A stretch of DNA of 52,255 nucleotides, taken from the NCBI GenBank assembly GCA_016178155.1, contig JACOTZ010000166.1:1-52255 (forward strand), read 5' to 3'. This DNA comes from Acidobacteriota bacterium. GTDB lineage: Bacteria > Acidobacteriota > Terriglobia > Bryobacterales > Bryobacteraceae. Positions within the stretch are counted from its first letter, which is position 1. Each line of letters begins with the position of its first letter. Below the pieces are notes generated by a model. It saw only the letters and a list, made by a program, of their open reading frames with translations. It did no database searches and was not told the DNA's origin. The position numbers were made by a program, and so were the translations under genes. Below are positions 17,163 to 45,821 of the stretch, piece by piece.

Positions 17163-19063
<1,901 letters not shown>

Positions 19064-19064
<1 letters not shown>

Positions 19065-19085
19065 GACAGGCCTCCGGGCCTGTCC
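19064..19085 (+). other. Intercistronic stem-loop between dnaK and dnaJ
   Basis: Perfect 9-bp stem GGACAGGCC/GGCCTGTCC with a TCCG loop, starting at the last base of the dnaK stop codon. No T-run follows, so it is more likely an attenuator or mRNA stabiliser than a full terminator. Confidence 0.5.
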
Positions 19086-19109
19086 TGCTGCTCGGTTCCG
19101 GTTCCGCTT

Positions 19110-20264: not shown

Positions 20265-20265
20265 T

Positions 20266-20670
20266 ATGGCGAAGTCGAAATCGAGAGCCGGCTACATGAT
20301 TTCCGCGGTCGCCGAGCAGTACCAGATTCACCCGCAGACGCTGCGGCTGTACGAGCGCGAAGGACTACTGATGCCGTCGCGCACCGAAGGCAACACCCGC
20401 ATGTATACGGATGAAGACATCGAGCGGCTGGAAGTGATTCTCAAACTCACCCGCGATCTGGGCGTCAATCTCGCCGGCGTTGAGGTCATTCTCAATATGC
20501 GCGAGAAGATGTCGGCCATGCAGAAGCAGATCGAGGAATTCGTAGCCACCCTCAATACCGAGCTCGCCCGCAATCTCACGCCTCCCGAGCCGCCCGCTAG
20601 ACACTCCCTCATCCCTGTGGCCCACGCCGCGCCGAACAACACCGAATCCGGGGGCCGCCGCAAGCGTTAG
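20266..20670 (+). CDS. hspR: MerR-family heat-shock repressor HspR
   Basis: ORF 19765.. trimmed to the ATG at 20266, 1 nt after the dnaJ stop. The sequence YMISAVAEQYQIHPQTLRLYEREGLLMPSRTEGNTRMY is the HspR/MerR HTH. Confidence 0.85.
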   Translation: MAKSKSRAGYMISAVAEQYQIHPQTLRLYEREGLLMPSRTEGNTRMYTDEDIERLEVILKLTRDLGVNLAGVEVILNMREKMSAMQKQIEEFVATLNTELARNLTPPEPPARHSLIPVAHAAPNNTESGGRRKR

Positions 20671-21453: not shown

Positions 21454-22758
21454 ATGAAAACCGGTCCTGCTTTTCGCCATTTCGTTTCCGTGGCGCTGGC
21501 GCTGCTCGTGTGCGCTTCCATGCTTGCGGCACAGGAGGCTGGCGCGCAGGCGCCACCCGCGTCCCCGCCCGGTGGTGGGGGCACGGGAGGACAGCAGCCT
21601 GGTGCACCGGGCGGTGCTCCCGGCGTTCCCGGCACGCCCGGCCGCGACCCCGGAATGGGAAGGCAGCCGCAGCAGCAGCCCTTCCCTGAGCCCCGCCAGC
21701 AGATGCCCGAGATGCAGCGCATGATCTTTCTGTCCGGCAAGGTCGTCATGGACGACGGCACGCCCCCGCCTGAGCAGGTGGTGATCGAGCGCGTCTGCAA
21801 TGGCATGCCGCGCCCGGAGGGCTACACCGATTCAAAGGGCCGTTTCAGTATTCAGCTCGGCGGCAATAACGCGGCCGTCATGATGGACGCCAGTGTCAGC
21901 TCGGCAGAAATGGACCCGAGCGCCATGGGCAGCCGCTCGGGTGCTTCGCGCTCGCCTTTCGGGCAGCGCGGGATCTCCGAGCGCGATCTGATGGGCTGCG
22001 ATCTGCGCGCCTCGCTCGCAGGTTTTCGCTCGGACGTCGTCAACCTCTCCGGCCGCCGCGCCATGGATAATCCGGACATCGGCACCATCGTGCTGCACCG
22101 GCTTGCGAAGGTGGAGGGCTTCACCTTCAGCGCCACCACAGCGTTCGCGCCGAAAGACGCCCGCAAGGCGTTCGAGAAAGGCCGGCAGGAAACAAAAAAG
22201 AAGAAGTTTGCCAACGCCGAGAAGGAGTTGAAGAAGGCGGTCGGGCTGTACCCGAAGTTCGCGGTCGCCTGGTATGAGCTGGGGACGGTGTACCAGCAGC
22301 AGAACAAGCTCGACGACGCCCGCAACGCCTACCAGGAATCGCTCAAGGCGGACCCCAAGCTGGTCACGCCGTACGCGCAGCTCGCGCGCCTGGCGGCGAC
22401 CGACCAGAAATGGCGCGAGGTGGCCGATTACACCTCCACGCTGCTGCGGCTCAACCCGTTCTTTTCCCCGGATCCCTACTTTTACAGTGCTGTAGCGAAC
22501 TACAACCTGCAGAAGTTCGATGTGTCGGAGGAGCACGTCCGCGAGGCGCTGAAGATGGATCCGCAGCGCTTCCCGCAGGCGCACCACCTGTTGGCCGCGC
22601 TGCTCGCCAACAAGCACGACTACAAAGGCGCGGCCGATGCTATGCGCACTTATATCAAGCTCGCGCCGAATGCCGCCAACTCTGCCCAGGCGCGGCAACA
22701 GCTCGCTGAAATCGAGCGGTTAAGCGGCGCCCCGCCGGCCAAACCCGAGGCGCAGTAA
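21454..22758 (+). CDS. Secreted protein with a G/P/Q-rich linker, a carboxypeptidase-regulatory-like domain and C-terminal TPR repeats
   Basis: Signal peptide ending MLAAQEA. Low-complexity PGGGGTGGQQPGAPGGAPGVPGTPG linker. IFLSGKVVMDDGTP...GYTDSKGRFSI is the regulatory-like domain. The TPR-like part includes AWYELGTVYQQQNKLDDARNAYQESLKADP. Confidence 0.75.
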   Translation: MKTGPAFRHFVSVALALLVCASMLAAQEAGAQAPPASPPGGGGTGGQQPGAPGGAPGVPGTPGRDPGMGRQPQQQPFPEPRQQMPEMQRMIFLSGKVVMDDGTPPPEQVVIERVCNGMPRPEGYTDSKGRFSIQLGGNNAAVMMDASVSSAEMDPSAMGSRSGASRSPFGQRGISERDLMGCDLRASLAGFRSDVVNLSGRRAMDNPDIGTIVLHRLAKVEGFTFSATTAFAPKDARKAFEKGRQETKKKKFANAEKELKKAVGLYPKFAVAWYELGTVYQQQNKLDDARNAYQESLKADPKLVTPYAQLARLAATDQKWREVADYTSTLLRLNPFFSPDPYFYSAVANYNLQKFDVSEEHVREALKMDPQRFPQAHHLLAALLANKHDYKGAADAMRTYIKLAPNAANSAQARQQLAEIERLSGAPPAKPEAQ

Positions 22759-22789
22759 GGGGCGGCCCCGTTACACTGGTACAGGCAGC

Positions 22790-22866
22790 GGGCGGTTAGC
22801 TCAGCCGGTTAGAGCGCCTGCCTTACAAGCAGGAGGTCCGCAGTTCGAGTCTGCGACCGCCCACCA
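22790..22866 (+). tRNA. tRNA-Val (anticodon TAC), CCA encoded
   Basis: Acceptor stem GGGCGGT/ACCGCCC, anticodon arm CCTGC-CTTACAA-GCAGG, T-arm CGCAG-TTCGAGT-CTGCG, and a terminal ACCA. Confidence 0.95.
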
Positions 22867-22947
22867 CAGCCGGCATCGTGGCCCAGCCCGCAATGCACGC
22901 CGCCGTCCGCCAGACGCCCCGCCACGAACCCGTCAGCCAACCACCGT

Positions 22948-25900
22948 TCAAAACATCAGCTTGAGCGCCAGTTGGCCAACGCGCGGCTGGCCGGTGGTCG
23001 AATTGACCTGGCCGAACTGTCCGCTGCCCATGCCGACTACCGGCAGCCAGAAGTTCGGGCGGTTGAAAGTATTAAAGGCCTCCGCACGAAACTGGAGCGT
23101 GGCTCTTTCCCATAGCGTCGTGTTCTTGATCAGCGAAAAATCAACGTTGATCAGGTTGGGGCCGCGCACGTCCGGCAGCGTGCGGCCCACGTTGCCCAGG
23201 GTGAAGGAAGCCGGCATGACGAATTGCGCGGTGTCGAACCATTTCTCGATCGCCTCGCCGCGCGGGCGGTCCTCGCTGATCCTGGCGCTCCGCCCGGTGC
23301 TGTTAGGACGGTTGCCGCCGTTGGGAATGGGCGCGGTGATCATCAAGGGAACTCCAGAGCGGTAACTGGTAACCCCATTCACCTGCCAGCCTTCCGCCAG
23401 ACGCCGCGCCAATCCTTTTGTATTGGCGAACAGCGCTTTGCCCGGACCGAACGGCAATCCTACAACGTAGCTCACGGTCAGGTTGCGGGCGACATCCGAC
23501 TCCGAAAGACCTTTCTCCGACCGCAGGTCATACCAGTTCTGGACCGAGGCGGAACCCCCCGGGCCGATGGGGGCCACCTGCGAGTTGGCGTCGGTCAGCA
23601 GCTTCGCGCCTGTAAACGCCACCAGAAAGCTGATGTCGGCGGAAAAACGCTTCTCCAGCTTCAGTTGTAGGGAGTGATAGTTGGAGTTCGCCGACGTGGA
23701 ATTGATGACCTGAATGGAGGTGTACTGCGGGTAGGGCAGCAGCAGCGAGCGCTGCACCACTCGGGGCTGCGCCAGTTGACCAGTGGTGATCGTTCCGTAG
23801 AACGGGTTGGTTACTTGCGCCAGCAGCGCGGTGCCCTCCGAGAGGTACTTGGGATCCAGCGCATTGATTTCACGGTTGCGGTAGGCGAGATGCGTGCCCT
23901 TGCTGCCGGCGTACGCAATGTCGAAAACCAGGTCGCGAGCGATCTGCTGCTGCACATCGAAGTTCCATTGCCACACCGTCGGTGTGATGGGCGTCTGGTC
24001 CCATACGGTCAGGCCCTGACCGAGATATGTGCTCGCCCCGAGGCTGTTCCGAGTGGGCTGGTTCAGCCCCTCGGGGAAGGGGTTCGCGAGCGTGCGAAAC
24101 GGTGTGAGACCGCCGTCCACCGACGCTACCAACGGCGTTGAGGAACTGTAGCCCGGGTTGGGAATGAAGCCCACGGCGTTGTTGCTGATTTCGAGCGGCG
24201 AGTAAAACAACCCGGCTCCCGCGCGGATCACCGTTCGCGGGAACAGCGTGTAGGCTATGCCCGCGCGCGGAGCGAAGTTGTTGCGGTCCCAGTCGAAAAT
24301 GTGGCGTGAGTCGTCATCGGCGAAGTGCAACGCGCCGGTCAGATTCGGAAATTGCGTGTTGCGCGCGGGGGATGGCGCCGCGGAATCGAACCACGCGAGT
24401 GAGTTGCGGCGCTCCGTGTAAGGGGATTCGGTCTCATAGCGCAACCCAAAATTGACCGTGAGCCTCGAGGTCAGCCGGAGATCGTCCTGCACGTAACCTG
24501 CCCAATACCAGTTCTGCAGCGACGCGCCGGACTCGAGGGGGGCCCTGCCGCTGGCCGGCATTCCAAGCAGCAGGCTGGCCATTCCGTTGCCGGCATCATT
24601 GTAGAACCGGTTCGGGTCGGGCCCGCGGGTGTAGATGCGGTTGAAGGTATAGCTTCCACCCGCGCCATTGTTGTTGAAGTAGTTGATGCGGCGCAGCCGC
24701 ATGTCGCCGCCAAACTTCAACGTGTGTTTCCCGGCGATCCAGGTCAACGACGGGAGAATGCTGTGCGTGTCGTTCCCGTTGTCGAGATAACTTTGACCGC
24801 CAAGCCCCGAATACTGGTCGATCGTAATGGCGGGAAACACGGGTATTTGAAACTGGCTCACGAGGCTGGCCGGAAAGCCCAACTGGCGCTGGTCGAACCC
24901 GTAGCTGCGAGTCGTCCGCAGTTGATACCAGCGTGCAAAACCGTAGCGGATATCCAGAATGGCCGTGGCACTCAGGGTCAGGGTGTCGTCGAAGGCGAAG
25001 GTGTGCTGGCGAAAGGGCGTGGTCCCGACGGAACCGGCGCCCGGCGTGGCTACGTTCGCGAACACGTCAGGCTGAGTCAACACCGTCACCATCCGGGCGA
25101 AGCGGCCATAGATGCGGTGACGTTCGGAAAAGTTGTGGTCCATGCGGCCGCTGAACTGATTCTGGTCGACGATGCGGCTCGCGTTGCTTACGAAATTGTT
25201 GAAGCCCGTGTAGCGGTCGCCCGCGGTGTTGGGCTGCGGAAAGTACTCGATGAGCTTGCGGGCGATGGGATCAATCCGGCTCGCGGGAATTGCGTTCGCC
25301 GCGAACGGCGAGCGTATGTACTGCCCGGCGCGAGCGGGGTCTCGTATTGTGGTCAGTGGATCGTAAATCACGACCGTCTCGCCGCGGTTGTTCAGGGTGC
25401 GGCCGAAGTCGCCCGTGCGCTCGAGCGCGGTCGGCACCGTGGTAAAGAAAACACTGCCGCGGCGCCAGCGGCTGCCCTGATAATCCGCGAAGAAGAACGT
25501 CTTGCTGCGGCCGTTGTACAGCTTGCCGAGCACCAGGGGACCGCCCGCCGAGCCTCCGAACTGGTTCATCCGGAAGGGAGGAATAGACCGGCCCGCACGG
25601 TTGTTGAAGAATTCGTTGGCATCGAATGCGCTGTTCCGCAGGAACTCATAAAGCGTGCCGTGGAGTTCGTTGGTGCCGGACTTAGTGGAGACATTCAGAA
25701 CACCGCCGCCGCTCCGGCCCCACTCCGCGGAAAGATTGTTGGACTGTACCTTGAACTCCTGGGTGGCCTCCACCGAGGGGATGGTCGTGATCTGGTTGAA
25801 GAAACCAGCGGTGCTGGGGACGCCGTCAATCTGCACTTCGTTCGATTGAAAGCGGCCGCCGTTAATCGAGAAATTGGAGTCCCAGGTAGTGTTCACCGCC

Positions 25901-26400
25901 AAATCGCCGAACTGGCCATTGGCCGAGGGCGCACTCAGAATGCCCGGTGTCAATTGCACCAGGCGGAAAGGGCTCCGGCCGTTCAGCGGTAGATTGGCAA
26001 TCTTCGAGCTGTCCACCACCTGTCCAAGCGCCGAGCTGTCGGTTTGCAGAATTGGAGCCACGGCACTGACTTCCACAGCCTGGGTGATCTGACCGACCTG
26101 GAGGACGATGTCCAGGCGCGCAACCTGGTCCACCGCCAGCGTAATGCGCTCGTGAGTGACGGGGCGGAAACCAGCCTTCTGAGCCTCCACTCTGTACGAG
26201 CCAACCGGCAGCAGGGGGACGGTAAAGATGCCGCTGGCATTGGTGGAGGTTTTCATGACGACCGAGGTGGCCGTATTTGTGACTGTGATCTCCACGCCGG
26301 GCACGACAGCATCGGTTGGATCGGTCACTCGACCGGTAATCTGGGCCGTTTGGCCGAACGCCGTCAAAGCCAGAAGGGATAAGCAAAGAAGCCGCATCAT
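22948..26400 (-). CDS. TonB-dependent outer-membrane receptor with carboxypeptidase-regulatory-like domain (paralog 2)
   Basis: ORF trimmed to MMRLLCLSLLALTAFGQTAQITGRVTD. The C-terminus ends LALKLMF. Confidence 0.9.
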   Translation of the reverse strand: MMRLLCLSLLALTAFGQTAQITGRVTDPTDAVVPGVEITVTNTATSVVMKTSTNASGIFTVPLLPVGSYRVEAQKAGFRPVTHERITLAVDQVARLDIVLQVGQITQAVEVSAVAPILQTDSSALGQVVDSSKIANLPLNGRSPFRLVQLTPGILSAPSANGQFGDLAVNTTWDSNFSINGGRFQSNEVQIDGVPSTAGFFNQITTIPSVEATQEFKVQSNNLSAEWGRSGGGVLNVSTKSGTNELHGTLYEFLRNSAFDANEFFNNRAGRSIPPFRMNQFGGSAGGPLVLGKLYNGRSKTFFFADYQGSRWRRGSVFFTTVPTALERTGDFGRTLNNRGETVVIYDPLTTIRDPARAGQYIRSPFAANAIPASRIDPIARKLIEYFPQPNTAGDRYTGFNNFVSNASRIVDQNQFSGRMDHNFSERHRIYGRFARMVTVLTQPDVFANVATPGAGSVGTTPFRQHTFAFDDTLTLSATAILDIRYGFARWYQLRTTRSYGFDQRQLGFPASLVSQFQIPVFPAITIDQYSGLGGQSYLDNGNDTHSILPSLTWIAGKHTLKFGGDMRLRRINYFNNNGAGGSYTFNRIYTRGPDPNRFYNDAGNGMASLLLGMPASGRAPLESGASLQNWYWAGYVQDDLRLTSRLTVNFGLRYETESPYTERRNSLAWFDSAAPSPARNTQFPNLTGALHFADDDSRHIFDWDRNNFAPRAGIAYTLFPRTVIRAGAGLFYSPLEISNNAVGFIPNPGYSSSTPLVASVDGGLTPFRTLANPFPEGLNQPTRNSLGASTYLGQGLTVWDQTPITPTVWQWNFDVQQQIARDLVFDIAYAGSKGTHLAYRNREINALDPKYLSEGTALLAQVTNPFYGTITTGQLAQPRVVQRSLLLPYPQYTSIQVINSTSANSNYHSLQLKLEKRFSADISFLVAFTGAKLLTDANSQVAPIGPGGSASVQNWYDLRSEKGLSESDVARNLTVSYVVGLPFGPGKALFANTKGLARRLAEGWQVNGVTSYRSGVPLMITAPIPNGGNRPNSTGRSARISEDRPRGEAIEKWFDTAQFVMPASFTLGNVGRTLPDVRGPNLINVDFSLIKNTTLWERATLQFRAEAFNTFNRPNFWLPVVGMGSGQFGQVNSTTGQPRVGQLALKLMF

Positions 26401-26430
26401 GTTCGCTTGCAGGTTAAGGTCTGTGTAGGC

Positions 26431-26460
26431 GTTATAACCTTGCCGGCAAACGGAAGTCAA
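26431..26460 (-). promoter_or_regulatory. sigma-70-type promoter for TonB receptor paralog 2
   Basis: On the minus strand: TTGACT (26460-26455), 18-nt spacer, TATAAC (26436-26431). The spacer contains the 10-bp palindrome TTGCCGGCAA (26440-26449). Confidence 0.45.
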
Positions 26461-26468
26461 GCCGAGGT

Positions 26469-26486
26469 CACAATTTGCACAATTTG
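26469..26486. repeat. Tandem 9-mer CACAATTTG x2 just upstream of the -35 element
   Basis: Exact direct repeat read from the sequence. Possible activator or repressor site. Confidence 0.5.
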
Positions 26487-26656
26487 ACGAACCGGACCGG
26501 GCTCCCGCGAATGCACATAAGCGCGTTGTACGGGCGCGTGCTCATGCTCCCCGGATCCGTGACTGCAGCGGAAGGTGGTCCGCGCCGCGGAGAGCGAAAA
26601 GGCGGGCTTTGAGCAACTCGAGCCGTCGTGGACTCGCCGGCACGGGCCTGCCGTGA

Positions 26657-27562
26657 TTACTCGACCGGCGCGCCGGCGCGGCGACCGTGAGTAGCTGCGG
26701 TCCCGAGTACGATCGGCGCTCCTGCATTCACCATCGCTCCTATCGTAGGTCCCTGAAAGAACGTGAATCCAGGACGGTCCTTCCAGTTAAGCGGCCCCCC
26801 TAGGTACTTCTTCGCACTCAGAACAGAGTCGTGGATCCGGGTAACCAGCGCCTCGTACTGCGGGTTGCCTTTCCGGTCCGGCCCCGTGGGCGGAAATCCC
26901 GAGAAGCTCCCCAAATCCGTACTGGCGGCGAAAACCACATCGACCCCCGGGACTGCGGCGATCCGATCGGCAATGTCCACGCCCGCCGGGTTCTCGATCA
27001 TGGCCACCACCATGATGTTGTCGTTGGCCGTCCGGCGGTAGTCGCTTCCCCAGATCCGGCTGTGCTGGCCGCCGCCCTGGCTGCGCCGCCCGATCGGCGG
27101 GTATTTCGCATACTTGACCGCCGCCTGCGCCTTCTCGACGGTATCGACCATGGGCACGATGATTCCCAGCGCCCCAAGGTCCGTCGCCTTCTGGATATCG
27201 CCGTCGGTCGCATCCGGCACTCGAACCATCGGAATGGCCTTCGCGCCCTTGCAGCTCGAAATCAGGTGGGCCGTCTGATCATACGTGAGCGTGCTATGCT
27301 GCATCTCGATCCAGGTGCAGTCGAACCCGGAATTGGCAATGGCGCAGTAGGCTTCCGGCTCCGCCGCGGACACGGTAGCACAGACCACCTGCTTACCTTC
27401 CGCCAGCTTCTGCTTGACCGTGTTGTAGATCCGGGGCTCCGCTGTCCGCTCTCTTTGCGCGGGCGCTGCAACCTGGCCCTGTTGTGTTCGGGCCACCTGC
27501 GCAATGGTCACTCCCAGAATCCCGCAAAGCAGGATCGGGAAAACGAGGCGCTTCAATGTCAT
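26657..27562 (-). CDS. HpcH/HpaI-family class II (pyruvate-forming) aldolase with Sec signal peptide
   Basis: ORF trimmed to MTLKRLVFPILLCGILGVTIAQ, with GGAGG upstream. Aligns by eye with E. coli HpaI, including MVRV (Arg), VPMVD..AVKYAKYPPIGRR, MIEN (Glu) and ASTDL (Asp). Confidence 0.85.
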   Translation of the reverse strand: MTLKRLVFPILLCGILGVTIAQVARTQQGQVAAPAQRERTAEPRIYNTVKQKLAEGKQVVCATVSAAEPEAYCAIANSGFDCTWIEMQHSTLTYDQTAHLISSCKGAKAIPMVRVPDATDGDIQKATDLGALGIIVPMVDTVEKAQAAVKYAKYPPIGRRSQGGGQHSRIWGSDYRRTANDNIMVVAMIENPAGVDIADRIAAVPGVDVVFAASTDLGSFSGFPPTGPDRKGNPQYEALVTRIHDSVLSAKKYLGGPLNWKDRPGFTFFQGPTIGAMVNAGAPIVLGTAATHGRRAGAPVE

Positions 27563-27580
27563 AATCCCTCCGCGCGACGT

Positions 27581-27609
27581 ATTGTAACAGCGTTGCATCG
27601 TATTGTCGC
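27581..27609 (-). promoter_or_regulatory. Possible internal promoter ahead of the aldolase gene
   Basis: On the minus strand: GCGACA (27609-27604), 17-nt spacer, TACAAT (27586-27581). Confidence 0.35.
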
Positions 27610-27614
27610 GGCAT

Positions 27615-27637
27615 CCGCTGATTCCGCTGATTCCGCC
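27615..27637. repeat. Tandem 9-mer CCGCTGATT x2 plus a partial third copy
   Basis: Exact direct repeat in the 144-nt gap between the RidA fusion and the aldolase gene. CGTATTGT also occurs twice nearby (27578-27585 and 27599-27606). Confidence 0.45.
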
Positions 27638-27706
27638 GGGCTGGCCGGAAACAACCCGGGGCCGCTGCAAATGCCGCACCCCGCCGCTCACACGTCCGTC
27701 CGCCCG

Positions 27707-28912
27707 CTACTTCACCGCAATCAGCGAGATCTCTTCGAGCCTCGGAGAGCGCCCTCGCTCGTCGGGCTTCCGCTCCACCGGCGCCAGAGGCTGCACCGTG
27801 GTGCGCGTCGGCTTCATCGCGGTGAAGTACTGGCCATACGTGCTGTTCATCTTTACGAATTCCTCGAGGTTGTCGAGGTATACGTTCGTCGCAACCACAT
27901 TCTGCAACCCCAGACCGGCCTCTTCCAGACCGTCGAGCAGGTTGCGCATGGTCTGCCGCACCTGGTGTTCCACGGTGGCGGCGTAAATCCCGCCGTTGGG
28001 GCCCGGGATGAACCCTGCCTTGGCGGAGCAGTAGAGCGTGTCGTCCGCCCACACGCAGGGGCTCGCGGTGGCGCTTGACGCCATGTTCTTCGGCCGCACG
28101 GCGCGCCGCTTCGCCGGATCGCGAATCGCAACGCCCGTAAACTCGATGTTCGTCCCGTGAGGAAGGCCGTGTACGCGGATGGTGGCGCGCGCGGGCGTGT
28201 TGCCGAACTCGAAATGCTTCGCGTAGATGCGATTCATCACGTCCATCGGCACCTTGTCGGTGAGGTACGGATTGACGAACACGAGATTGCGGAAATCCAT
28301 CCCGGCAGCGGTCAGCACCGATCGGATGCGGTCCAGCGCGAGCTGCACCTGCGCGGCGGGTTCGCTGGGAATCGCGCGGGTCTGCGGATCCCAACCCACC
28401 AGGCCGCTCAGGTACAGCCGGTCGCCGGCAAGCACACCCGCGGGAATGCCCGCCGTCCACCCGGGCGGGTTTACCGCACGCTTGCGGCTGAGGTCGCGAA
28501 TCGCCACGACCGTGATCTCCACCGGCGTGTCGGTGGGCATCTTGTATACCCCGAGCGTCGCCCGCGCCGGCCCGTTCCTGGGGAAGTACTTTCGCCAGGC
28601 CACGCCGATGCGCTCGTACTGCGAGACGTCGGCCATGTAAACCTGCGTATAGACGACGTGCTCCATCGTGAGGCCGGCGGTCTCAAGGATCGTCTGAATG
28701 TTCGAGAGCGTGTCGGCGACCTGCTCCTCGACGCTCGCCGCGAACTTACCTTCCTTGTTGCGCGCGCCCTGGCCGGATACGTAGAGAAATTCGCCGGCCC
28801 AGATGCCGGGGCTGTACGGGCCCACCGTCGTCGCCCCCGGCGGCGAGACCACTTTGAGCTCTGCCGCAAACAGCGCGGCAGCAAAAACCGCGATCAGAAA
28901 TGTCAGCTTCAT
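27707..28912 (-). CDS. Secreted protein made of three tandem RidA/YjgF/UK114 domains
   Basis: Sec signal MKLTFLIAVFAAALFAAE. Three units of about 128 aa follow, each with the family hallmark (GPYSPG..YVSGQ; P-A/T-R-A/T-T: PARATLGV, PARATIRV, PTRTTVQ). GAGGGAG Shine-Dalgarno upstream. Confidence 0.85.
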   Translation of the reverse strand: MKLTFLIAVFAAALFAAELKVVSPPGATTVGPYSPGIWAGEFLYVSGQGARNKEGKFAASVEEQVADTLSNIQTILETAGLTMEHVVYTQVYMADVSQYERIGVAWRKYFPRNGPARATLGVYKMPTDTPVEITVVAIRDLSRKRAVNPPGWTAGIPAGVLAGDRLYLSGLVGWDPQTRAIPSEPAAQVQLALDRIRSVLTAAGMDFRNLVFVNPYLTDKVPMDVMNRIYAKHFEFGNTPARATIRVHGLPHGTNIEFTGVAIRDPAKRRAVRPKNMASSATASPCVWADDTLYCSAKAGFIPGPNGGIYAATVEHQVRQTMRNLLDGLEEAGLGLQNVVATNVYLDNLEEFVKMNSTYGQYFTAMKPTRTTVQPLAPVERKPDERGRSPRLEEISLIAVK

Positions 28913-28921
28913 GCGTCTCCC

Positions 28922-30109
28922 TCACATCGGCGCGACCAGCCGCTTGCCGCGGCAGATCGTTAAACGGCTCACGATCCGCTTTTCGGTCTTCAGCAGGTTT
29001 TTCTGCGAATCGATGAGCTGGAAGCTCCCGCTCTCGATGGCAAGCAGTGCGAGGTCGGCGGGCCCGCCGGCGGTGATCGAGCCCATGCCGGGCAGCCGGT
29101 CCACCACGCGCGCGGGAGCGGCGGTACACTTCTCCACCACGTCGTCGAAACTCATGCCCAGCGCGAGCAGCTTGCTCATGGTGGTCGGCAGGTCGTACAC
29201 CGGGCCGTTGATGTTGCTGGAGTAGACGTCCGTGGAAATGGAATCGGGCGGAAAACCCTGCTCGAGCGCCTGGCGCGCGATCGCGAAGTTGAAGCTGCCC
29301 GACCCGTGGCCCACGTCGAAATGGACGCCGCGGCTGCGGGCCTCGCGCACACTCGCCCGCACCTTTTTGTTTGCGTCCAGGATGCCGATCGTATGCGTGT
29401 TGTAGCAGTGCGTGACCACGTCCCCAGGACGCATCTGCGGCATCACCTCGTCGGTTTCGGGCGGCGCGAAGCTGATGTGCGCCATCATCTTCAGCTTGTA
29501 TTTGTCGCACAGCTCGCGTGCGATCCGGAAGATCTCGGGCGAGTAGCGGCCGCTCATGTTCGAGCCGACCTGCACCTTGACCCCGAGAATGATGTCGCGG
29601 TTGCGCGTGGCAGTCTCGCCCGTGGCGCGCATCTGCGAGCGAATGTAGCGAATCGCGTCATCGTCCGGATTGCGGTCGTTCATGTACAGGTAGACAAAAC
29701 CGTATATCCGGACCTGCGCGGGATTCACGATAAAGCGGCGGAAGCCCGGCATTTGGGAGTAGCCGAACGTACCGGCGTCGACCCAGGTGGTGACGCCCGA
29801 GCGCGCCGCCACCGGGTCGGCTTCGATTCCCGTCGCTGTGGCGCTGTGATAGCAGTGCGTGTGCAAGTCGACCAGCCCCGGCACAACGTACAGGCCGGAC
29901 GCATCGATCACATCGAGAGCCCGTTCAGGCGCGATCCTGTCTTCGACGGCGGCGATGCGGCCGTTGCGGATCGCGACGTCGGCCCTGCGGCGCAGCTTCT
30001 GCCCGGGATCCCGCACCTCGCCGTTGCGGATGAGAATGTCATACGGGCGCTGCTGGGCGAGAGCGGCGGTGGCCCCGCCCAGCATGCTGACGAACGCGCG
30101 GCGGTTCAT
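28922..30109 (-). CDS. Tat-exported metal-dependent amidohydrolase (aminoacylase/dihydroorotase-like, EF_0837-type)
   Basis: ORF trimmed to MNRRAFVSMLGGATAALAQQ (twin-arginine signal). GLVDLHTHCY metal motif. The start overlaps the upstream stop (ATGA). Confidence 0.85.
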   Translation of the reverse strand: MNRRAFVSMLGGATAALAQQRPYDILIRNGEVRDPGQKLRRRADVAIRNGRIAAVEDRIAPERALDVIDASGLYVVPGLVDLHTHCYHSATATGIEADPVAARSGVTTWVDAGTFGYSQMPGFRRFIVNPAQVRIYGFVYLYMNDRNPDDDAIRYIRSQMRATGETATRNRDIILGVKVQVGSNMSGRYSPEIFRIARELCDKYKLKMMAHISFAPPETDEVMPQMRPGDVVTHCYNTHTIGILDANKKVRASVREARSRGVHFDVGHGSGSFNFAIARQALEQGFPPDSISTDVYSSNINGPVYDLPTTMSKLLALGMSFDDVVEKCTAAPARVVDRLPGMGSITAGGPADLALLAIESGSFQLIDSQKNLLKTEKRIVSRLTICRGKRLVAPM

Positions 30110-31692
30110 CAGGCCCGATACTTCCTGCGGTCGGCAGTCCATTCGCCGACCCCGTACTCGCCCAGCATGACCTGGCCGCTCATGGTCTCGCCCGAGACTT
30201 GACCGGCGAACTCATACGGCAGCGCGGTGCCCTCGTACGGATGGCGGCTGGAGAACCGGATTTCGGAGCCTTCGACCCAACCGTGCAGGTCGCCGCTCGT
30301 GACGTCGCCGCGGTGAGTGCCGGTCAGCTCGGCGTCCTTCTGCTCGAAAACCAGGTTGTGCTCGGCGGTTCCCACGAAGTACTTGAGATGGAGGTTCCAC
30401 TGGCCGGCGACGTTCGCGGCCGAACCCCCGGGTTTGGCCTGGCGCGCGGCGGCCGGCGGTTTCGCCAGTACCGCCTGGATGCGCTCGGCGACAACCTTGT
30501 GATCGCCGGGCTGCATCATGTAGGGCATGATCGTGATCGAGCTGGGCCGCGTGTTGGGCCTCGAAGCTCCGCCCAGGACGATGCGCGGATCGGACTCATA
30601 CAGATACTTCTCGACTTCGTGGCCGGCGATGCCGATCTTTTCGGCATCCCAGGTAATATCGAGCAGCGGCGCGCGGTTGGAGAGACCGCGTGGCGGGCGC
30701 ACTCGCGTGGTGACGCCGGGAACCTGGCTCGCGCGCTCGGCGATGTGGCCGATCCAGGACTCCCACGCTCGGTACTCGGCATCGTGGTCGCGCTTCACCC
30801 AGGTTTCCACCGCCGCCAGCATGCCCATGATTTCCTCTTTACCGACTTTGAGCGAGCGGCCGAAGGCGTGATGTGGCGCGCTGTTTAGCCAGGCGGCGCG
30901 CACCAGGTCCTTCTGGCCGAGCAGGAGGCCCGCCGATTGCGGCCCGCGGATGCACTTGCCTCCGCTGTAGCAGACCATGTGGGCGCCGGCCTGCAGATGC
31001 TTGTTCGGGATGGTCAGATGTTCGGCCGCCGCGTCCACCACTACCGGCACTCCCTTCTCGCGGGCGAGGCGTGAAATGGTCTGCGTCGACATCGGCTCAG
31101 CATCGGACGATGGTCCGGCCAAAACCATGACCATGGCGGTGCGCTCGCTAAACGCACGCTGCAGTTGGTCCGCTGTCGAGACCGTGATCATTTTGACCCC
31201 GAGCATGCGGATCGCGTGATCGTAAACGTTGCGCGAGTGGCGCGGCGCGATGACCTCGTTCTTGAGGCCAACAAGGTGGGGAAGCCGCTGCATCTTCTCC
31301 GGGTCGGCGCCGGCGATGCAGGCCGAGGTGGCGTGGGTCAGCGCGGCCGCGCAGCCGTTGGTCACAATGCCCCACTCGGCGCCCGTGAGTGCCGCCAGGC
31401 GCCGGCCGACTCCGTCCATCAGCTCGTCTAAATGTACGTAATGTTTGCTCGCTTCCATCATGGCCTGCCTGACTTCGGGCAGAAGAAGCGAGCCGCTCAC
31501 GATCGTGAATGTCCCCTTGCAGTTGATGAGCGGGCGAACTCCAATGGATTGATAGAGATTGGGGCCGATCTGGAGCGCCCCGCCTTCGACCGGCGCAGCC
31601 GCCGCGACGCCGGGCACGTAACGAAGCCCGGCGGCGAAACCCGTGTATTCGAACAGGCGGCGGCGGGTTAGATTCCTAAAACGTGCAAGCAT
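30109..31692 (-). CDS. SelA-related PLP-dependent enzyme (DgaE-like ammonia-lyase family) with Tat-like signal and an extra C-terminal beta-rich domain
   Basis: ORF trimmed to MLARFRNLTRRRLFEYTGFAAGL. The core PLINCKGTFTIVSGS...VCYSGGKCIRGPQSAGLLLG contains the PLP-lysine motif of the SelA-like family. About 110 extra C-terminal residues are present. Confidence 0.8.
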   Translation of the reverse strand: MLARFRNLTRRRLFEYTGFAAGLRYVPGVAAAAPVEGGALQIGPNLYQSIGVRPLINCKGTFTIVSGSLLLPEVRQAMMEASKHYVHLDELMDGVGRRLAALTGAEWGIVTNGCAAALTHATSACIAGADPEKMQRLPHLVGLKNEVIAPRHSRNVYDHAIRMLGVKMITVSTADQLQRAFSERTAMVMVLAGPSSDAEPMSTQTISRLAREKGVPVVVDAAAEHLTIPNKHLQAGAHMVCYSGGKCIRGPQSAGLLLGQKDLVRAAWLNSAPHHAFGRSLKVGKEEIMGMLAAVETWVKRDHDAEYRAWESWIGHIAERASQVPGVTTRVRPPRGLSNRAPLLDITWDAEKIGIAGHEVEKYLYESDPRIVLGGASRPNTRPSSITIMPYMMQPGDHKVVAERIQAVLAKPPAAARQAKPGGSAANVAGQWNLHLKYFVGTAEHNLVFEQKDAELTGTHRGDVTSGDLHGWVEGSEIRFSSRHPYEGTALPYEFAGQVSGETMSGQVMLGEYGVGEWTADRRKYRA

Positions 31693-31903
31693 GATGTACC
31701 TCTGTTTTCGTGGGTGAAAACTGCAAGTGTACCGCGATTTGCGCCGAAGTGGCGCCCTTCGATCGGGCCCGCCGCGTCTTCCGGGACCCAGTGGAGGCGG
31801 AGCCTTTTCATCCGTCGCTGTCCGCCGCAGGCGAATGAGCAACCGTCTTCTCGCCTTCTGAATTCGCTCTTCCTCCCCCACGCGGTAAACTGACAAGGAA
31901 CTC

Positions 31904-32950
31904 ATGAAAAAGGCCCTGATCACGGGGATCACCGGCCAGGATGGTTCTTTCCTCGCGGAGTTCCTCCTGGCCAAAGACTACGAGGTGCACGGCCTCATCC
32001 GCCGCGCCTCCACCTTCAACACCGATCGGCTCGACTCCATCTACATCGACCCCCACGAGCGCGGATCGTCCCTGCACCTCCACTATGGCGACCTGACCGA
32101 CGGCACGGGCACGCGGCGCGTCATCGAGAAGGTTCAGCCGGATGAGATCTATAACCTGGCCGCGCAGTCGCACGTGCGGGTGAGCTTCGATCAGGCCGAG
32201 TACACCGCGGACGTAGTCGCCACGGGCACGCTCCGGCTGCTCGAAGCCGTCCGCGATTACGTCTGGAACACCGGGCGGGAGGTCAGGTTCTATCAGGCGG
32301 GATCCTCGGAGATGTTCGGCGCGGCCACGCCGCCGCAAAATGAGACCACGCCGTTCTATCCCCGCAGTCCCTACGCGGTGAGCAAGGTCGCGGCGCATTG
32401 GTACGCGGTAAATTACCGCGAGGCCTACGGATTGTTCATCTGCAATGGCATCCTCTTCAATCACGAGTCCCCGCGCCGGGGCGAGACCTTCGTCACGCGC
32501 AAGATCACGCGGGCGCTGGCGCGCATCAAGTGCGGGAGGCAGGAGAAGCTTTACCTCGGCAATCTCGAGGCGCGGCGCGACTGGGGCTACGCTGGCGACT
32601 TCATCGAGGCGATGTGGCTGATGCTGCAGCATGGCGAGGCCGGCGATTACGTGGTGGCGACCGGCGAATCGCATTCCGTCCGCGAGTTCCTGGACGTGGC
32701 CGGCGACTGCTGCGGTGTTGCTTGGAACAAGCATGTCGAGATCGACTCCCGCTACTTCCGGCCGACCGAGGTCGATTTCCTGCTCGGCGATGCCTCGAAA
32801 GCGCGCCGGCAGCTCGGCTGGCGCCCGCGCATGAGCTTCCCTGAACTGGTGCGCATGATGATGGAGCATGACCTCGAGCTGGCTCGGCAGGAGCAGACGC
32901 TCGCCGCTGCCGGTCACCGGGTGATCACGCGCGGGGCCTCGCATGCATAA
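31904..32950 (+). CDS. gmd: GDP-mannose 4,6-dehydratase
   Basis: [40 protein letters not shown] and the full-length pattern. Confidence 0.95.
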
Positions 32951-33893
32951 GTCGTCCCGCGTTTTCGTCGCCGGGCACCGCGGATTGGTCGGCTCTGCCA
33001 TCTGCCGGCGCCTCCAGCAGCAAGACTACGCGAATCTCATCGTTCGCACGCGGCAGGAACTGGACCTGACCGACGCCGCCGCCGTCGAGCGATTCTTTAC
33101 CGGCGCCAAACCGGAGTATGTGTTCATGGCGGCGGCCAAAGTCGGCGGCATTCTGGCCAACGACACCTATCCCGCCGACTTCATCCGCGAGAATCTGGCG
33201 GTCCAGATCAACGTCATCGACGCCGCCCGCCGGCACGCCGTGGAAAAGCTCGCATTTCTCGGCTCGTCCTGCATTTACCCCAAGCACGCGCCGCAGCCGA
33301 TGAAAGAGGAGTACCTGCTCACCGGCCCTCTCGAGCCCACCAACGAGGCCTATGCCGTTGCGAAGATCGCCGGTATCAAGATGGTCCAGGCCTATTACAG
33401 ACAGTACGGGTTCTGCGGCATCAGCCTGATGCCGACGAACCTCTACGGACCCGGTGACAATTTCCATCCCCAGAACTCCCATGTACTCCCCGCGCTGCTG
33501 CGGAAATTTCACGAGGCGAAGCTCGCCGGCGCGCCCGAGGTGCTGGTTTGGGGCTCCGGAAACGCGCGCCGCGAATTTCTGCACGTCGACGACCTCGCGG
33601 ACGCGGCGCTCTTCCTGATGCTCCACTATGATTCGCCCGAGATCATCAACGTCGGCGCCGGCCAGGACCTGACGATTCGCGAGCTGGCGGAATTGGTCCG
33701 GCGCGTCACCGGCTATGGCGGCCGCATTGTCTTCGATACGTCGAAACCCGACGGCACGCCGCGCAAGCTGCTCGACATCTCGCGCATCCGGGCGCTCGGG
33801 TGGCAGCCGCGTATTCCGCTGGAAGAGGGCATCCGCAGCGCCTACGAGTGGTACGTCGGCACTGCCGCGCCGGCGCTCGTCAGCAGCCGTTAA
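32943..33893 (+). CDS. fcl: GDP-L-fucose synthase
   Basis: [31 protein letters not shown]. Overlaps gmd by 8 nt. Confidence 0.93.
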
Positions 33894-34230
33894 TTAAGCC
33901 CGCAAACTGATGGCTCGATCCTTGTTCTCCAGTCTGCTCTTGCGGCTGATTGCCGGCCGCCGTTCCGGCTGCGCGACACAGGCCAAAGGAAAACCCGCCT
34001 GCGCGGCTCGGCGAAGTGCAAGGCGCGACACGGGGCCTGACCCGGGCGCGTGAGCCGGACAGGAGCCGTCCCTGCGTGCCGATGAGCTGCTCGCATCGTC
34101 CCGAATCGCACTGGCCTCGAGAACGCGGACCGCTCGTGCCGGTCCCTTCGAGAGGCATCGTCGAAGTGCGCCCCGATGGTTGTTTCCCGCTCTCCTCGCC
34201 TGCCGCGCTTGCCGCGCTGTCCGGTCCGCC

Positions 34231-38268: not shown

Positions 38269-38276
38269 CGCTCTCT

Positions 38277-43949: not shown

Positions 43950-43951
43950 TT

Positions 43952-45818: not shown

Positions 45819-45821
45819 ACC

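What the first reader, a model, noticed from the sequence alone, without database searches (positions are those of the whole stretch)
22948..31692. Fully exported deacylase, PLP-lyase, RidA and aldolase operon beside a TonB receptor: candidate periplasmic amino-(sugar)-acid catabolic pathway
Seen in sequence:
- Four co-directional genes are tightly packed: an ATGA overlap at 30107-30111, a 9-nt gap at 28913-28921, then a 144-nt gap. A giant TonB-dependent receptor with its own promoter follows.
- Each enzyme carries an N-terminal extension ahead of its conserved core.
- The metallo-amidohydrolase (NRRAFVSMLGGATAALAQQ) and the PLP enzyme (TRRRLFEYTGFAAGL...AAAAP) have twin-arginine-type extensions.
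- The triple-RidA protein and the HpcH aldolase have Sec-type extensions.

Established knowledge:
- A SelA-related PLP enzyme, an EF_0837-type amidohydrolase and an aldolase form a conserved neighbourhood.
- In Salmonella, DgaE and DgaF (D-glucosaminate-6-P ammonia-lyase and KDPG aldolase) are the characterised cytoplasmic, PTS-linked example.
- RidA quenches the enamine/imine products of PLP eliminations.

Inference:
- None of the four reactions needs ATP or NAD(P).
- The two enzymes with tightly bound cofactors use Tat, and the two without use Sec.
- No kinase, inner-membrane transporter or regulator sits in the cluster.
- The pathway could therefore run in the periplasm on a substrate imported by the adjacent receptor. 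The proposed order is N-acyl amino acid deacylation, then alpha,beta-elimination, then imine hydrolysis, then aldol cleavage to pyruvate plus an aldehyde. As far as I know this has not been described.
Basis: partly seen in the sequence, partly recalled or inferred. Interest (0 to 1): 0.8.

Follow-up and report, generated by a model that had tools for sequence, protein, structure and literature searches.

The report
Exported PLP lyase, deacylase, RidA operon
A soil acidobacterium carries a tight three-gene operon for enzymes that normally work inside the cell, all with conserved export signals, which suggests that part of amino-acid or amino-sugar-acid breakdown happens in the periplasm; the neighbouring aldolase and outer-membrane receptor are only loosely tied to it.

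Summary
On the minus strand lie five genes:
- a DgaE/SelA-like PLP enzyme (31692-30109)
- a cog3964 metallo-amidohydrolase (30109-28922)
- a triple RidA (28912-27707)
- an HpcH aldolase (27562-26657)
- a TonB-dependent receptor (26400-22948)

The export signals are real. About 110 of the 120 best PLP homologues keep an [ST]RRxLF Tat motif. Amidohydrolase partners nearly all carry signals. Triple RidAs are Sec-type, whereas single-domain RidA partners are Tat-type. At least 109 of 120 aldolase homologues carry Sec signals.

Context in 80 acidobacterial loci supports only a core of PLP enzyme, amidohydrolase and RidA (odds ratios 7-8 for immediate adjacency). No PfkB kinase motif turned up. Inner-membrane transporters are rare.

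The aldolase is not co-conserved: 0 of 29 aldolase-centred loci hold the PLP gene. It also has its own promoter-like site. Receptor linkage is weak (odds ratio 2.1, p = 0.03).

The closest working analogue is the cytoplasmic Ong pathway for oxidised chitin (deacetylase, PLP deaminase, RidA). The substrate is unknown. I found no published description. I file it as a new variant of a known kind, interest about 0.6.

The parts
30109..31692 (-). DgaE/SelA-like fold-type I PLP enzyme, 527 aa. It has a Tat signal, a catalytic core with Lys246, and a C-terminal beta-barrel.
   Evidence: TIGR01437 E = 2.8e-45, but 154.8 bits against a cut-off of 385. Closest solved structures are DgaE (7lc0) and Cap15 (8t7j), with the catalytic Lys aligned. 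More than 6500 homologues were found.
31591..31692 (-). Twin-arginine signal of the PLP enzyme (residues 1 to about 34, LTRRRLFEYTGFAAGLRYVPGVAAAAP).
   Evidence: The [ST]RRxLF motif is kept in about 110 of the 120 best homologues and in 67-69 of 69 classifiable paralogues in related loci. The region is disordered in the model. Hydrophobicity is low.
30127..30405 (-). C-terminal eight-stranded up-and-down beta-barrel domain of the PLP enzyme (residues about 430-522). No family is assigned.
   Evidence: pLDDT 91. No Pfam match. No PDB match with E <= 0.001; the best are calycin- or avidin-like barrels. A profile search finds 2948 representatives: stand-alone, tandem, and fused to an exported RraA-like aldolase.
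28922..30109 (-). cog3964 / PRK09237-type binuclear metallo-amidohydrolase, 395 aa, with an RR-type signal (MNRRAFVSMLGGATAALAQQ).
   Evidence: NF006689 scores 397.9 bits against a cut-off of 371. Closest structures are 2ogj, 8je0, 2ics and 8wzy. The HxH, Lys, His, His and Asp ligands are conserved. Orthologues carry signals. The 1-nt TGATG overlap with the PLP gene is read from the sequence.
27707..28912 (-). Triple-domain RidA (three PF01042 units in one chain), 401 aa, with a Sec-type signal (MKLTFLIAVFAAALFA).
   Evidence: PF01042 is found three times, TIGR00004 scores 218.7 bits. The Arg105 equivalent is conserved in all three domains. 116 of the 120 listed homologues have a hydrophobic N-terminal signal, and on reading all but three are Sec-type. 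The gap to the amidohydrolase gene is 9 nt.
26657..27562 (-). HpcH/HpaI class II pyruvate aldolase, 301 aa, with a Sec-type signal. Its link to the operon is uncertain.
   Evidence: PF03328 scores 72.6 bits. The catalytic His, Arg, Glu and Asp align with 4tv5 and YfaU. At least 109 of 120 homologues carry Sec signals. Its closest homologues and 29 aldolase-centred loci lack PLP neighbours.
27581..27609 (-). Promoter-like site (GCGACA, 17 nt, TG-TACAAT) in the 144-nt gap upstream of the aldolase gene.
   Evidence: It is the only sigma-70-like match in 22700-32000. The count is not above the shuffle expectation, so it is suggestive by position only.
22948..26400 (-). TonB-dependent-receptor-like outer-membrane protein: Sec signal, CarboxypepD_reg domain, weak plug, 838-position barrel. 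It is probably a separate transcription unit.
   Evidence: PF25183 scores 767.8 bits and PF13620 79.3 bits. The Plug domain scores only 17.4 bits, below the cut-off of 23.9. The upstream gap is 256 nt.
26431..26460 (-). TTGACT, 17-18 nt, TATAAC promoter-like sequence upstream of the receptor gene.
   Evidence: Read directly from the sequence. The scan tool does not report it because the last base of the -10 hexamer is C.

Best explanation
The functional unit is a translationally coupled three-gene operon, 31692-27707 on the minus strand. It encodes an exported set of enzymes for deacylation and deamination.

1. The PLP enzyme binds its cofactor in the cytoplasm and is exported folded through Tat.
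2. The amidohydrolase is exported through an RR-type signal in this genome. Most relatives use Sec-like signals.
3. The triple RidA is threaded through Sec. It then folds into a single-chain copy of the usual RidA trimer.

Outside the cytoplasm, most likely in the periplasm, I propose three steps:
- The binuclear-metal amidohydrolase removes an N-acyl group from a D-configured or beta-hydroxy alpha-amino acid. One candidate is a 2-acylamino-2-deoxy-aldonate.
- The DgaE-like PLP enzyme carries out an alpha,beta-elimination and releases an enamine/imine.
- RidA hydrolyses that intermediate to a 2-keto acid plus ammonium.

General transporters would then take up the small common products, which would explain why no dedicated inner-membrane transporter or kinase is encoded.

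The adjacent exported HpcH aldolase may cleave a 4-hydroxy-2-keto or 2-keto-3-deoxy product to pyruvate plus an aldehyde. The adjacent TonB-type receptor may import the precursor. Both links are specific to this genome and remain unproven.

Shown here: gene structure, family membership, intact catalytic residues, conserved export signals, and the recurrent neighbourhood of PLP enzyme, amidohydrolase and RidA.

Inferred: actual localisation, reaction order, substrate class, and any role of the aldolase and the receptor.
For: - Families and intact active sites.
- Tat motif conserved in about 110 of the 120 best PLP homologues and in 67-69 of 69 classifiable paralogues.
- Amidohydrolase partners: 18 Sec-like and 3 RR-type of 21.
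- Single-domain RidA partners have SNRRxFL Tat motifs. Triple RidAs have Sec signals. Export route therefore varies with oligomeric state, which is hard to explain unless export is real.
- Immediate-neighbour enrichment around the PLP gene in 80 loci: amidohydrolase odds ratio 7.3, p = 3e-6; RidA odds ratio 7.8, p = 8e-7.
- The closest orthologues again pair with a triple RidA, an amidohydrolase or both.
- Predicted operon mates show no PfkB motif. Only one locus holds ABC permeases.
- Related loci add periplasmic PQQ quinohemoprotein dehydrogenases, a signal-bearing gluconolactonase, and signal-bearing RraA-like aldolases. This fits aldonic-acid-type substrates.
- The Ong pathway shows that a deacetylase, a PLP deaminase and an essential RidA convert N-acetyl-glucosaminate to 2-keto-3-deoxygluconate (PMC9537276).
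- DgaE acts on a D-amino-acid-like beta-hydroxy substrate (PMC9529869).
Against: - No localisation or enzyme data exist for any member.
- No trained signal-peptide predictor was available.
- The h-region of this particular PLP signal is short and interrupted by Glu15 and Arg24.
- The PLP enzyme scores far below the DgaE cut-offs. It is equally close to Cap15, an O2-dependent PLP enzyme with different chemistry.
- The only activity known to me for cog3964 enzymes is on O-acetyl esters of alpha-hydroxy acids (from memory, Ornelas et al. 2013; not verified here).
- About half of the 80 PLP loci show none of the partners.
- Export by Tat or Sec does not distinguish periplasmic from surface or secreted location.
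Confidence: 0.5

Rival explanations
1. All five genes form one periplasmic pathway: receptor import, then deacylation, elimination, imine hydrolysis and aldol cleavage to pyruvate plus an aldehyde. The substrate would be an N-acyl amino-sugar acid such as N-acetyl-D-glucosaminate.
For: - All five genes are co-directional and adjacent, and all products carry signals.
- The aldolase has intact catalytic residues and is closest to 2-keto-3-deoxy sugar-acid aldolases.
- In L106 an exported aldolase of this family sits next to a Tat-signal enolase-superfamily dehydratase, so periplasmic 2-keto-3-deoxy-acid cleavage is plausible.
- Signal-bearing RraA-like aldolases, a different class II aldolase family, are operon mates of PLP genes in 4-5 loci.
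- The same beta-barrel domain is fused to an RraA-like aldolase.
- Receptor adjacency is mildly enriched.
Against: - The HpcH aldolase lies near the PLP gene in only 2 of 80 loci.
- No PLP gene occurs in 29 aldolase-centred loci, nor next to the 70-87% identical aldolases.
- The 144-nt gap holds a promoter-like site.
- Receptors of this type are very frequent here, three per 52 kb.
- The Arg226 and Arg301 positions that bind the substrate in DgaE are not conserved, and the substrate is unknown.
Confidence: 0.22
2. The exported module exists but uses different chemistry or a different substrate class. One option is N-acyl-D-serine or D-threonine (or a C-S or C-Cl beta-substituted amino acid), which would go directly to pyruvate or 2-ketobutyrate with RidA quenching 2-aminoacrylate. 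Another is a Cap15-like oxidative PLP reaction. The role could be nitrogen scavenging or detoxification rather than sugar-acid catabolism.
For: - The PLP enzyme is as close to Cap15 (O2- and PLP-dependent) as to DgaE.
- It fails the DgaE equivalog cut-off.
- The classical substrate of RidA is 2-aminoacrylate, from established knowledge of the Rid family.
- The family is hugely expanded, with several paralogues per locus and five in L079. This implies many specificities.
- No aldolase is needed in most loci.
Against: - Tight coupling to RidA argues against a Cap15-type decarboxylating oxygenase, which releases no enamine.
- PQQ dehydrogenases and a lactonase in related loci point to aldonic acids.
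- Small amino acids would not obviously need a TonB-type receptor.
Confidence: 0.2
3. The N-terminal extensions are not functional export signals, or the true starts lie downstream. On this view the enzymes act in the cytoplasm as in Salmonella Dga or Pseudoalteromonas Ong.
For: - No experimental data exist.
- The h-region of this PLP signal is weak.
- NCBI and Logan gene calls differ slightly for the aldolase and the receptor.
Against: - No in-frame Met lies between the signal and the conserved core of the PLP enzyme.
- The signals are conserved across hundreds of homologues in five protein families.
- No transporter or kinase is present.
- A cytoplasmic-type lyase in the same window lacks any signal.
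Confidence: 0.05

Closest known systems
Ong cluster for oxidised chitin (GlcNAc1A) in Pseudoalteromonas prydzensis ACAM 620 (PMC9537276)
   Same: The logic and order are the same. TonB-dependent receptors import the precursor. An amidohydrolase-superfamily deacetylase (OngB) acts first, then a PLP-dependent deaminase (OngC). A RidA protein (OngD) is essential. The product is a 2-keto-3-deoxy acid, which ends in aldol cleavage.
   Different: OngB, OngC and OngD are cytoplasmic, and the cluster holds an inner-membrane SSS transporter, a kinase (KdgK) and a repressor. OngB is a D-aminoacylase type, not cog3964. [quoted passage not shown] Here all enzymes carry export signals, no ATP-dependent step is encoded, and the aldolase is class II and non-phosphorylative.
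Salmonella D-glucosaminate pathway DgaE/DgaF (structure 7lc0; PMC9529869)
   Same: The PLP enzyme shares the DgaE/SelA-like fold and the catalytic lysine. Both families would carry out alpha,beta-elimination on a D-amino-acid-like beta-hydroxy substrate, followed by an aldolase.
   Different: DgaE is cytoplasmic, PTS-linked and acts on the 6-phosphate. The window protein scores 152.6 bits against the DgaE equivalog cut-off of 600. It lacks the Arg226 and Arg301 equivalents, and it adds a Tat signal and a C-terminal beta-barrel. From my own knowledge, not tested here, DgaF is a class I KDPG aldolase rather than an HpcH type.
EF_0837-type amidohydrolase / SelA-related PLP enzyme neighbourhood (TIGR03583 / TIGR01437) and cog3964 enzymes such as Atu3266 (2ogj)
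   Same: The same two protein families are paired, and the amidohydrolase has the same binuclear metal site.
   Different: Those systems are cytoplasmic. The window amidohydrolase meets PRK09237 (NF006689) but not the TIGR03583 cut-off. The physiological substrate of cog3964 is unknown.
[quoted passage not shown]
   Same: It is a PLP-dependent enzyme that works in the periplasm and feeds amino-acid catabolism.
   Different: It is a racemase of another PLP fold type, it is a single enzyme rather than a multi-step module, and it has no RidA partner. I did not look up how it is exported.
Cap15, the O2- and PLP-dependent enzyme of capuramycin biosynthesis (8t7j)
   Same: It is the closest structural match, together with DgaE (TM-score 0.83 on the target).
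   Different: It is a cytoplasmic biosynthetic enzyme with oxidative chemistry and has no RidA, amidohydrolase or export signal. Apart from the PDB title, these details are from my own knowledge, not tested here.

Membership tests
DgaE family PLP ammonia-lyase (TIGR01437 / NF047797) | Score at or above the curated HMM cut-off | tested here: not met
   TIGR01437 scores 154.8 bits against 385.3. NF047797 scores 152.6 bits against 600.
DgaE family PLP ammonia-lyase (TIGR01437 / NF047797) | Fold-type I SelA-like core with the Schiff-base lysine (Lys213 in DgaE) | tested here: met
   YSGGK246 aligns with YSGAK213. Foldseek gives TM-score 0.82 on 7lc0. Lys246 is invariant in 27 homologues.
DgaE family PLP ammonia-lyase (TIGR01437 / NF047797) | Arg226 (carboxylate) and the Arg301/332/346 cluster (6-phosphate) of DgaE | tested here: inconclusive
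   Arg226 aligns to Gln260 and Arg301 to Leu343 (read against PMC9529869). Arg332 and Arg346 lie outside the alignment.
DgaE family PLP ammonia-lyase (TIGR01437 / NF047797) | Ammonia-lyase activity on D-glucosaminate-6-phosphate | not testable with these tools
   This needs an enzyme assay.
cog3964 / PRK09237 amidohydrolase-deacetylase metallohydrolase | Curated HMM cut-off and the binuclear metal ligands (HxH, carboxylated Lys, His, His, Asp) | tested here: met
   NF006689 scores 397.9 bits against 371. All ligands align with 2ogj.
EF_0837 subfamily (TIGR03583) | Curated HMM cut-off | tested here: not met
   277.1 bits against 432.15.
RidA / Rid family imine deaminase (TIGR00004, PF01042) | HMM cut-off and the catalytic Arg105 equivalent | tested here: met
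   218.7 bits against 106.25 over three domains. The Arg is present in all three domains (PARAT, PARAT, PTRTT).
RidA / Rid family imine deaminase (TIGR00004, PF01042) | Trimeric assembly, here proposed as a single-chain pseudo-trimer | not tested
The idea is inferred from three tandem domains.
HpcH/HpaI class II aldolase (PF03328) | Pfam cut-off and the catalytic His, Arg, and metal-binding Glu and Asp | tested here: met
   72.6 bits against 25. The residues align with 4tv5; 4tv6 is its Glu-to-Gln variant at the aligned metal ligand.
Specific aldolase equivalogs GarL, HpaI, RhmA | Curated equivalog cut-offs | tested here: not met
   Scores of 93.9, 90.0 and 75.8 bits against cut-offs of 369-441.
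TonB-dependent receptor | Outer-membrane barrel plus N-terminal plug domain | tested here: inconclusive
   The barrel model PF25183 scores 767.8 bits. The Plug domain scores 17.4 bits against 23.9 but covers positions 11-106 of 107. No TonB box was searched for.
Tat (twin-arginine) substrates | An S/T-R-R-x-F-L-type motif before a moderately hydrophobic h-region, conserved in orthologues | tested here: met
   The PLP enzyme has TRRRLF and the amidohydrolase NRRAFV. Conservation is shown, and hydrophobicity. No trained predictor or experiment was available.
Ong (GlcNAc1A) pathway | Orthology to OngB (D-aminoacylase type), OngC, the OngIT transporter and KdgK | tested here: not met
   The amidohydrolase matches D-aminoacylases only over its first ~100 residues, with E about 1e-6. 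No transporter or kinase lies in the cluster. The likeness is functional, not membership.

The most novel reading that the evidence does not exclude
Soil Acidobacteriota may run a large, so far undescribed periplasmic network for mineralising nitrogen-containing organic acids.

Its core would be thousands of Tat-exported DgaE-like PLP lyases, several paralogues per genome, each teamed with exported RidA and deacylases. In many loci PQQ dehydrogenases, lactonases and class II aldolases are added.

The network would convert imported N-acyl amino or amino-sugar acids to ammonium, acetate, pyruvate and aldehydes without ATP, kinases or dedicated inner-membrane transporters.

This would also be the first RidA function outside the cytoplasm and, as far as I know, the first natural Tat-exported PLP enzyme family.
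Probability: 0.3. Interest if true: 0.8.

Novelty: new variant of a known kind. Interest (0 to 1): 0.6.

Why it matters
Acidobacteriota are among the most abundant soil bacteria, and much of their physiology is unknown.

If deacylation, PLP-dependent deamination and imine hydrolysis really occur in the periplasm, three things follow:
- PLP and RidA chemistry would extend outside the cytoplasm.
- There would be a transporter-sparing strategy, in which many substrates are reduced to a few small products before uptake. This is relevant to soil nitrogen and amino-sugar turnover.
- Several very large protein families now carry generic or wrong labels, such as 'L-seryl-tRNA selenium transferase' or 'aminotransferase class V-fold'. 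They would gain a testable role.

The switch between Tat (single-domain RidA) and Sec (triple-domain RidA) is a neat natural experiment on how oligomeric state dictates export route.

Tried and rejected
1. Literature searches found no prior description. I searched for DgaE/glucosaminate, cog3964/EF_0837/TIGR IDs, exported RidA, Tat plus PLP lyases, PDB codes, and Acidobacteria plus these families. Only the Ong papers and the P. putida racemase paper were useful.

2. I tested the aldolase as a conserved pathway member and rejected it on comparative grounds.

3. I tested the receptor as a dedicated partner. The enrichment is weak.

4. I tried to identify the C-terminal domain. It has no Pfam match at E <= 10 and no PDB fold match with E <= 0.001.

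5. I considered that RR motifs in triple RidAs meant Tat export. I rejected this because the 'ERRVVFP' motif follows the hydrophobic region and the cleavage site.

6. I considered upstream alternative starts: TTG 31974, ATG 30142 and GTG 27691. I rejected these because of overlap with the divergent gmd gene, the ribosome-binding sites, the independent gene calls and the homologue N-termini. None of them would remove a signal.

7. I looked for PfkB kinase motifs and multi-pass membrane proteins among operon mates. There were essentially none.

8. The terminator scan gave nothing above the shuffle expectation.

Full report
**What is there**

The window is part of contig JACPWK010000230.1 of assembly GCA_016197095.1. 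Its relatives are Bryobacteraceae and other Acidobacteriota.

Five co-directional genes lie on the minus strand:

| Gene | Coordinates | Length |
|---|---|---|
| PLP enzyme | 31692-30109 | 527 aa |
| Metallo-amidohydrolase | 30109-28922 | 395 aa |
| Triple RidA | 28912-27707 | 401 aa |
| HpcH aldolase | 27562-26657 | 301 aa |
| TonB-type receptor | 26400-22948 | 1150 aa |

The spacing is a 1-nt TGATG overlap, then gaps of 9, 144 and 256 nt. It is TGATG at the same coordinates.

All starts have GGAGG-like ribosome-binding sites. Independent gene calls on the public contig agree with these starts.

**Families and active sites**

- **PLP enzyme.** It belongs to the DgaE/SelA-like group (TIGR01437 E = 2.8e-45) but scores far below the curated cut-offs (154.8 against 385 bits; DgaE equivalog 152.6 against 600). 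Its closest solved relatives are DgaE (7lc0) and Cap15 (8t7j), by sequence and by fold, and the Schiff-base lysine aligns. DgaE Arg226 and Arg301 were placed at the substrate carboxylate and 6-phosphate by docking (PMC9529869). They correspond to Gln260 and Leu343 here. The enzyme is therefore a relative of DgaE, not an orthologue.
- **Amidohydrolase.** It meets the PRK09237 model (397.9 against 371 bits) but not EF_0837. It keeps every ligand of the binuclear metal centre of cog3964 structures.
- **RidA.** The protein holds three RidA domains, each with the catalytic arginine.
- **Aldolase.** It keeps the His, Arg, Glu and Asp of class II pyruvate aldolases and is nearest to 2-keto-3-deoxy sugar-acid aldolases.
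- **Receptor.** It has a CarboxypepD_reg domain, a weak plug and a very strong barrel match.

**Are the export signals real?**

No trained predictor was available, so I used conservation.

- Compared with solved cytoplasmic relatives, each enzyme carries 20-45 extra N-terminal residues.
- Among the 120 best PLP homologues (59-72% identity), about 110 keep an [ST]RRxLF motif followed by a Gly/Ala-rich h-region, while the flanking residues vary freely. The rest look like truncated gene calls.
- In 80 genome loci, 67 of 69 classifiable PLP paralogues score as Tat, and the other two also show SRR on inspection. This set includes 35-40% identical paralogues that lack the C-terminal domain.
- Amidohydrolase partners carry signals in nearly every case: 18 Sec-like and 3 RR-type of 21. 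The window's own subfamily is RR-type, as in L004.
- At least 109 of 120 aldolase homologues have Sec signals ahead of the conserved RIYNTVKQKL start.
- 116 of the 120 listed triple RidAs have a strongly hydrophobic N-terminal signal, and on reading all but three are Sec-type. An apparent RR motif (ERRVVFP) lies after the cleavage site.
- The single-domain RidA proteins next to PLP genes have textbook Tat motifs (SNRRxFL).

The last two points matter most. A protein that must assemble as a trimer uses Tat, whereas the fused three-domain version uses Sec. That pattern is hard to explain unless the proteins really are exported.

The two RR signals in the window also have the lower h-region hydrophobicity typical of Tat (1.6-1.7 against 2.8-3.0).

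The same window offers an internal contrast: a TonB-type receptor, a signal-bearing sialidase, an MFS transporter and a NanA-like lyase without any signal.

One caveat is that the h-region of this particular PLP signal is short and interrupted by Glu15 and Arg24. Its closest homologue shares that feature.

**Which genes belong together?**

I analysed the 80 loci centred on PLP homologues.

| Neighbour type | Share of immediate neighbours | At four or more genes away | Odds ratio | p |
|---|---|---|---|---|
| Amidohydrolase | 10% | 0% | 7.3 | 3e-6 |
| RidA | 11% | 0-2% | 7.8 | 8e-7 |
| TonB-type receptor | 9% | about 4.5% at distances of 2-7 genes | 2.1 | 0.03 |

- All three orders of the triad occur, for example PLP-AMH-RidA in L051, L056, L057, L060 and L070.
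- The closest orthologues pair with a triple RidA (L001, L002, L012, L077), with the 68% identical amidohydrolase (L004), or with both plus a receptor.
- The window itself holds three such receptors in 52 kb.
- The HpcH aldolase lies within 10 kb of the PLP gene in only 2 of 80 loci.
- Three look-ups of 70-87% identical aldolases and 29 aldolase-centred metagenome loci of at least 6 kb contain no PLP gene. The aldolase has no conserved partner.
- The only sigma-70-like match in the region lies in the 144-nt gap directly upstream of the aldolase gene. A TTGACT...TATAAC sequence precedes the receptor gene.

So the conserved functional unit is the PLP enzyme, the amidohydrolase and RidA. The aldolase and the receptor are neighbours that may or may not take part.

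**Further context**

Recurrent extra neighbours of PLP genes:

| Neighbour | Loci of 80 |
|---|---|
| PQQ quinohemoprotein dehydrogenase, mostly adjacent and co-directional | 8 |
| Tat-signal DUF362 protein | 6 |
| Signal-bearing RraA-like aldolase | 5 |
| Cytochrome c | 5 |
| Signal-bearing SMP-30 / gluconolactonase | 4 |

A periplasmic dehydrogenase plus a lactonase would make aldonic acids. This favours 2-amino-2-deoxy-aldonates as one substrate class, but the numbers are small.

Predicted operon mates show no PfkB kinase motif. Multi-pass membrane proteins are rare, and ABC permeases occur only in L039.

**The C-terminal domain**

Residues about 430-522 of the PLP enzyme form a confident eight-stranded up-and-down beta-barrel (pLDDT 91).

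- It has no Pfam match and no PDB match with E <= 0.001.
- A profile search finds 2948 representatives. The listed hits include stand-alone proteins, proteins with up to eight matched copies, and a fusion to a signal-bearing RraA-like aldolase. Of the ten sequences I read, the five-copy protein P0362 and the aldolase fusion P0466 begin with signal peptides, and several of the short single-copy hits are fragments of PLP enzymes.
- Its function is unknown. Sharing between the lyase and an aldolase hints at a common ligand or partner.

**How it most likely works**

The PLP enzyme binds its cofactor in the cytoplasm and leaves through Tat. The amidohydrolase and the triple RidA follow by their own routes. 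Outside the cytoplasm the amidohydrolase removes an N-acyl group, the PLP enzyme eliminates the beta-substituent, and RidA hydrolyses the enamine/imine to a 2-keto acid and ammonium.

None of these steps needs ATP or NAD(P), from established knowledge of the families.

This order mirrors the Ong pathway. There OngB, OngC and the essential RidA OngD convert N-acetyl-glucosaminate to 2-keto-3-deoxygluconate, but in the cytoplasm, and with a dedicated transporter, kinase and repressor (PMC9537276).

The aldolase could finish the job by a non-phosphorylative cleavage. L106 pairs an exported aldolase of this family with a Tat-signal enolase-superfamily dehydratase, which shows that such a periplasmic role is plausible. 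Here the idea rests on adjacency alone.

**Alternatives I cannot exclude**
- Substrates such as N-acyl-D-serine or N-acyl-D-threonine, which would yield pyruvate or 2-ketobutyrate directly.
- Cap15-like oxidative chemistry.
- Secretion beyond the periplasm.

**Novelty and verdict**

Databases label these proteins generically, and I found no paper describing exported DgaE-like enzymes or exported RidA. A periplasmic PLP racemase is known in Pseudomonas putida (PMC6034422).

I file the finding as a new variant of a known kind: a deacylase, PLP-deaminase and RidA module moved outside the cytoplasm and built from different families.

Export and the three-enzyme core are well supported by comparison. 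The five-gene pathway and the sugar-acid substrate are not. Interest is about 0.6.

Noticed in passing
window 36179-42777 (-): A classical sialic-acid-type locus: a TonB-type receptor (39703-42777), a BNR sialidase with a Sec signal (38277-39389), a DHDPS/NanA-like lyase without a signal (37369-38295) and an MFS transporter (36179-37489). It is built with periplasmic hydrolysis, import and then cytoplasmic lysis, unlike the all-exported cluster.
   Followed up: partly
window 8879-10096 (-) and 268-1509 (-): Two more 'cytoplasmic-type' enzymes carry twin-arginine signals: a Gfo/Idh/MocA oxidoreductase (GVTRRTAIRTAAAATAA) and a xylose-isomerase-like TIM-barrel protein (KVSRRTFLGGL). Export of metabolic enzymes seems to be a general habit of this genome.
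   Followed up: partly
window 30127-30405 (-); P0361-P0509: The C-terminal beta-barrel of the PLP enzyme is an unnamed mobile domain with 2948 representative proteins. It occurs alone, in arrays of up to eight copies, and fused to a signal-bearing RraA-like aldolase (P0466).
   Followed up: partly
L016-L079 (single-domain RidA genes beside PLP genes); P0241-P0360: Export route tracks domain architecture. Single-domain RidA proteins beside PLP genes carry Tat motifs (SNRRxFL). Triple-domain RidA proteins carry strongly hydrophobic Sec signals.
   Followed up: yes
L005, L022, L024, L037, L052, L058, L061, L070: PQQ quinohemoprotein dehydrogenases, often with a cytochrome c or a signal-bearing gluconolactonase nearby, sit beside Tat-PLP genes. 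This suggests periplasmic oxidation of (amino) sugars to aldonic acids upstream of the lyase.
   Followed up: partly
L106 8001-10200: An exported HpcH aldolase is followed directly by a Tat-signal enolase-superfamily (MR/MLE) protein. This is a possible periplasmic pair of sugar-acid dehydratase and aldolase.
   Followed up: no
L079 600-15315: About six PLP-paralogue matches, plus single- and triple-domain RidA genes, lie within 15 kb of one acidobacterial contig. This shows strong local expansion of the family.
   Followed up: no
L015, L029, L044, L050 (cluster c5); L013, L037, L044, L045, L055, L058 (DUF362): Two further Tat-signal proteins recur beside PLP genes: a 411-aa protein with no Pfam match and a DUF362 protein. 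Their roles are unknown.
   Followed up: no
window 43032-50627: GntR-like and TetR-like regulator genes (assigned only from their N-terminal sequences, no family search) are followed by an RND efflux operon (HlyD-type adaptor, AcrB-type pump, outer-membrane factor). A dnaK-dnaJ-MerR/HspR-like heat-shock locus lies at 17163-20670.
   Followed up: no
L086 4334-6763; L088 2511-11389: The closest aldolase homologues sit near an amine-oxidase gene or near GDP-mannose dehydratase/epimerase genes. The same genes flank the cluster in the window (31904-35607). The PLP-amidohydrolase-RidA operon may therefore have been inserted beside a pre-existing aldolase gene.
   Followed up: partly
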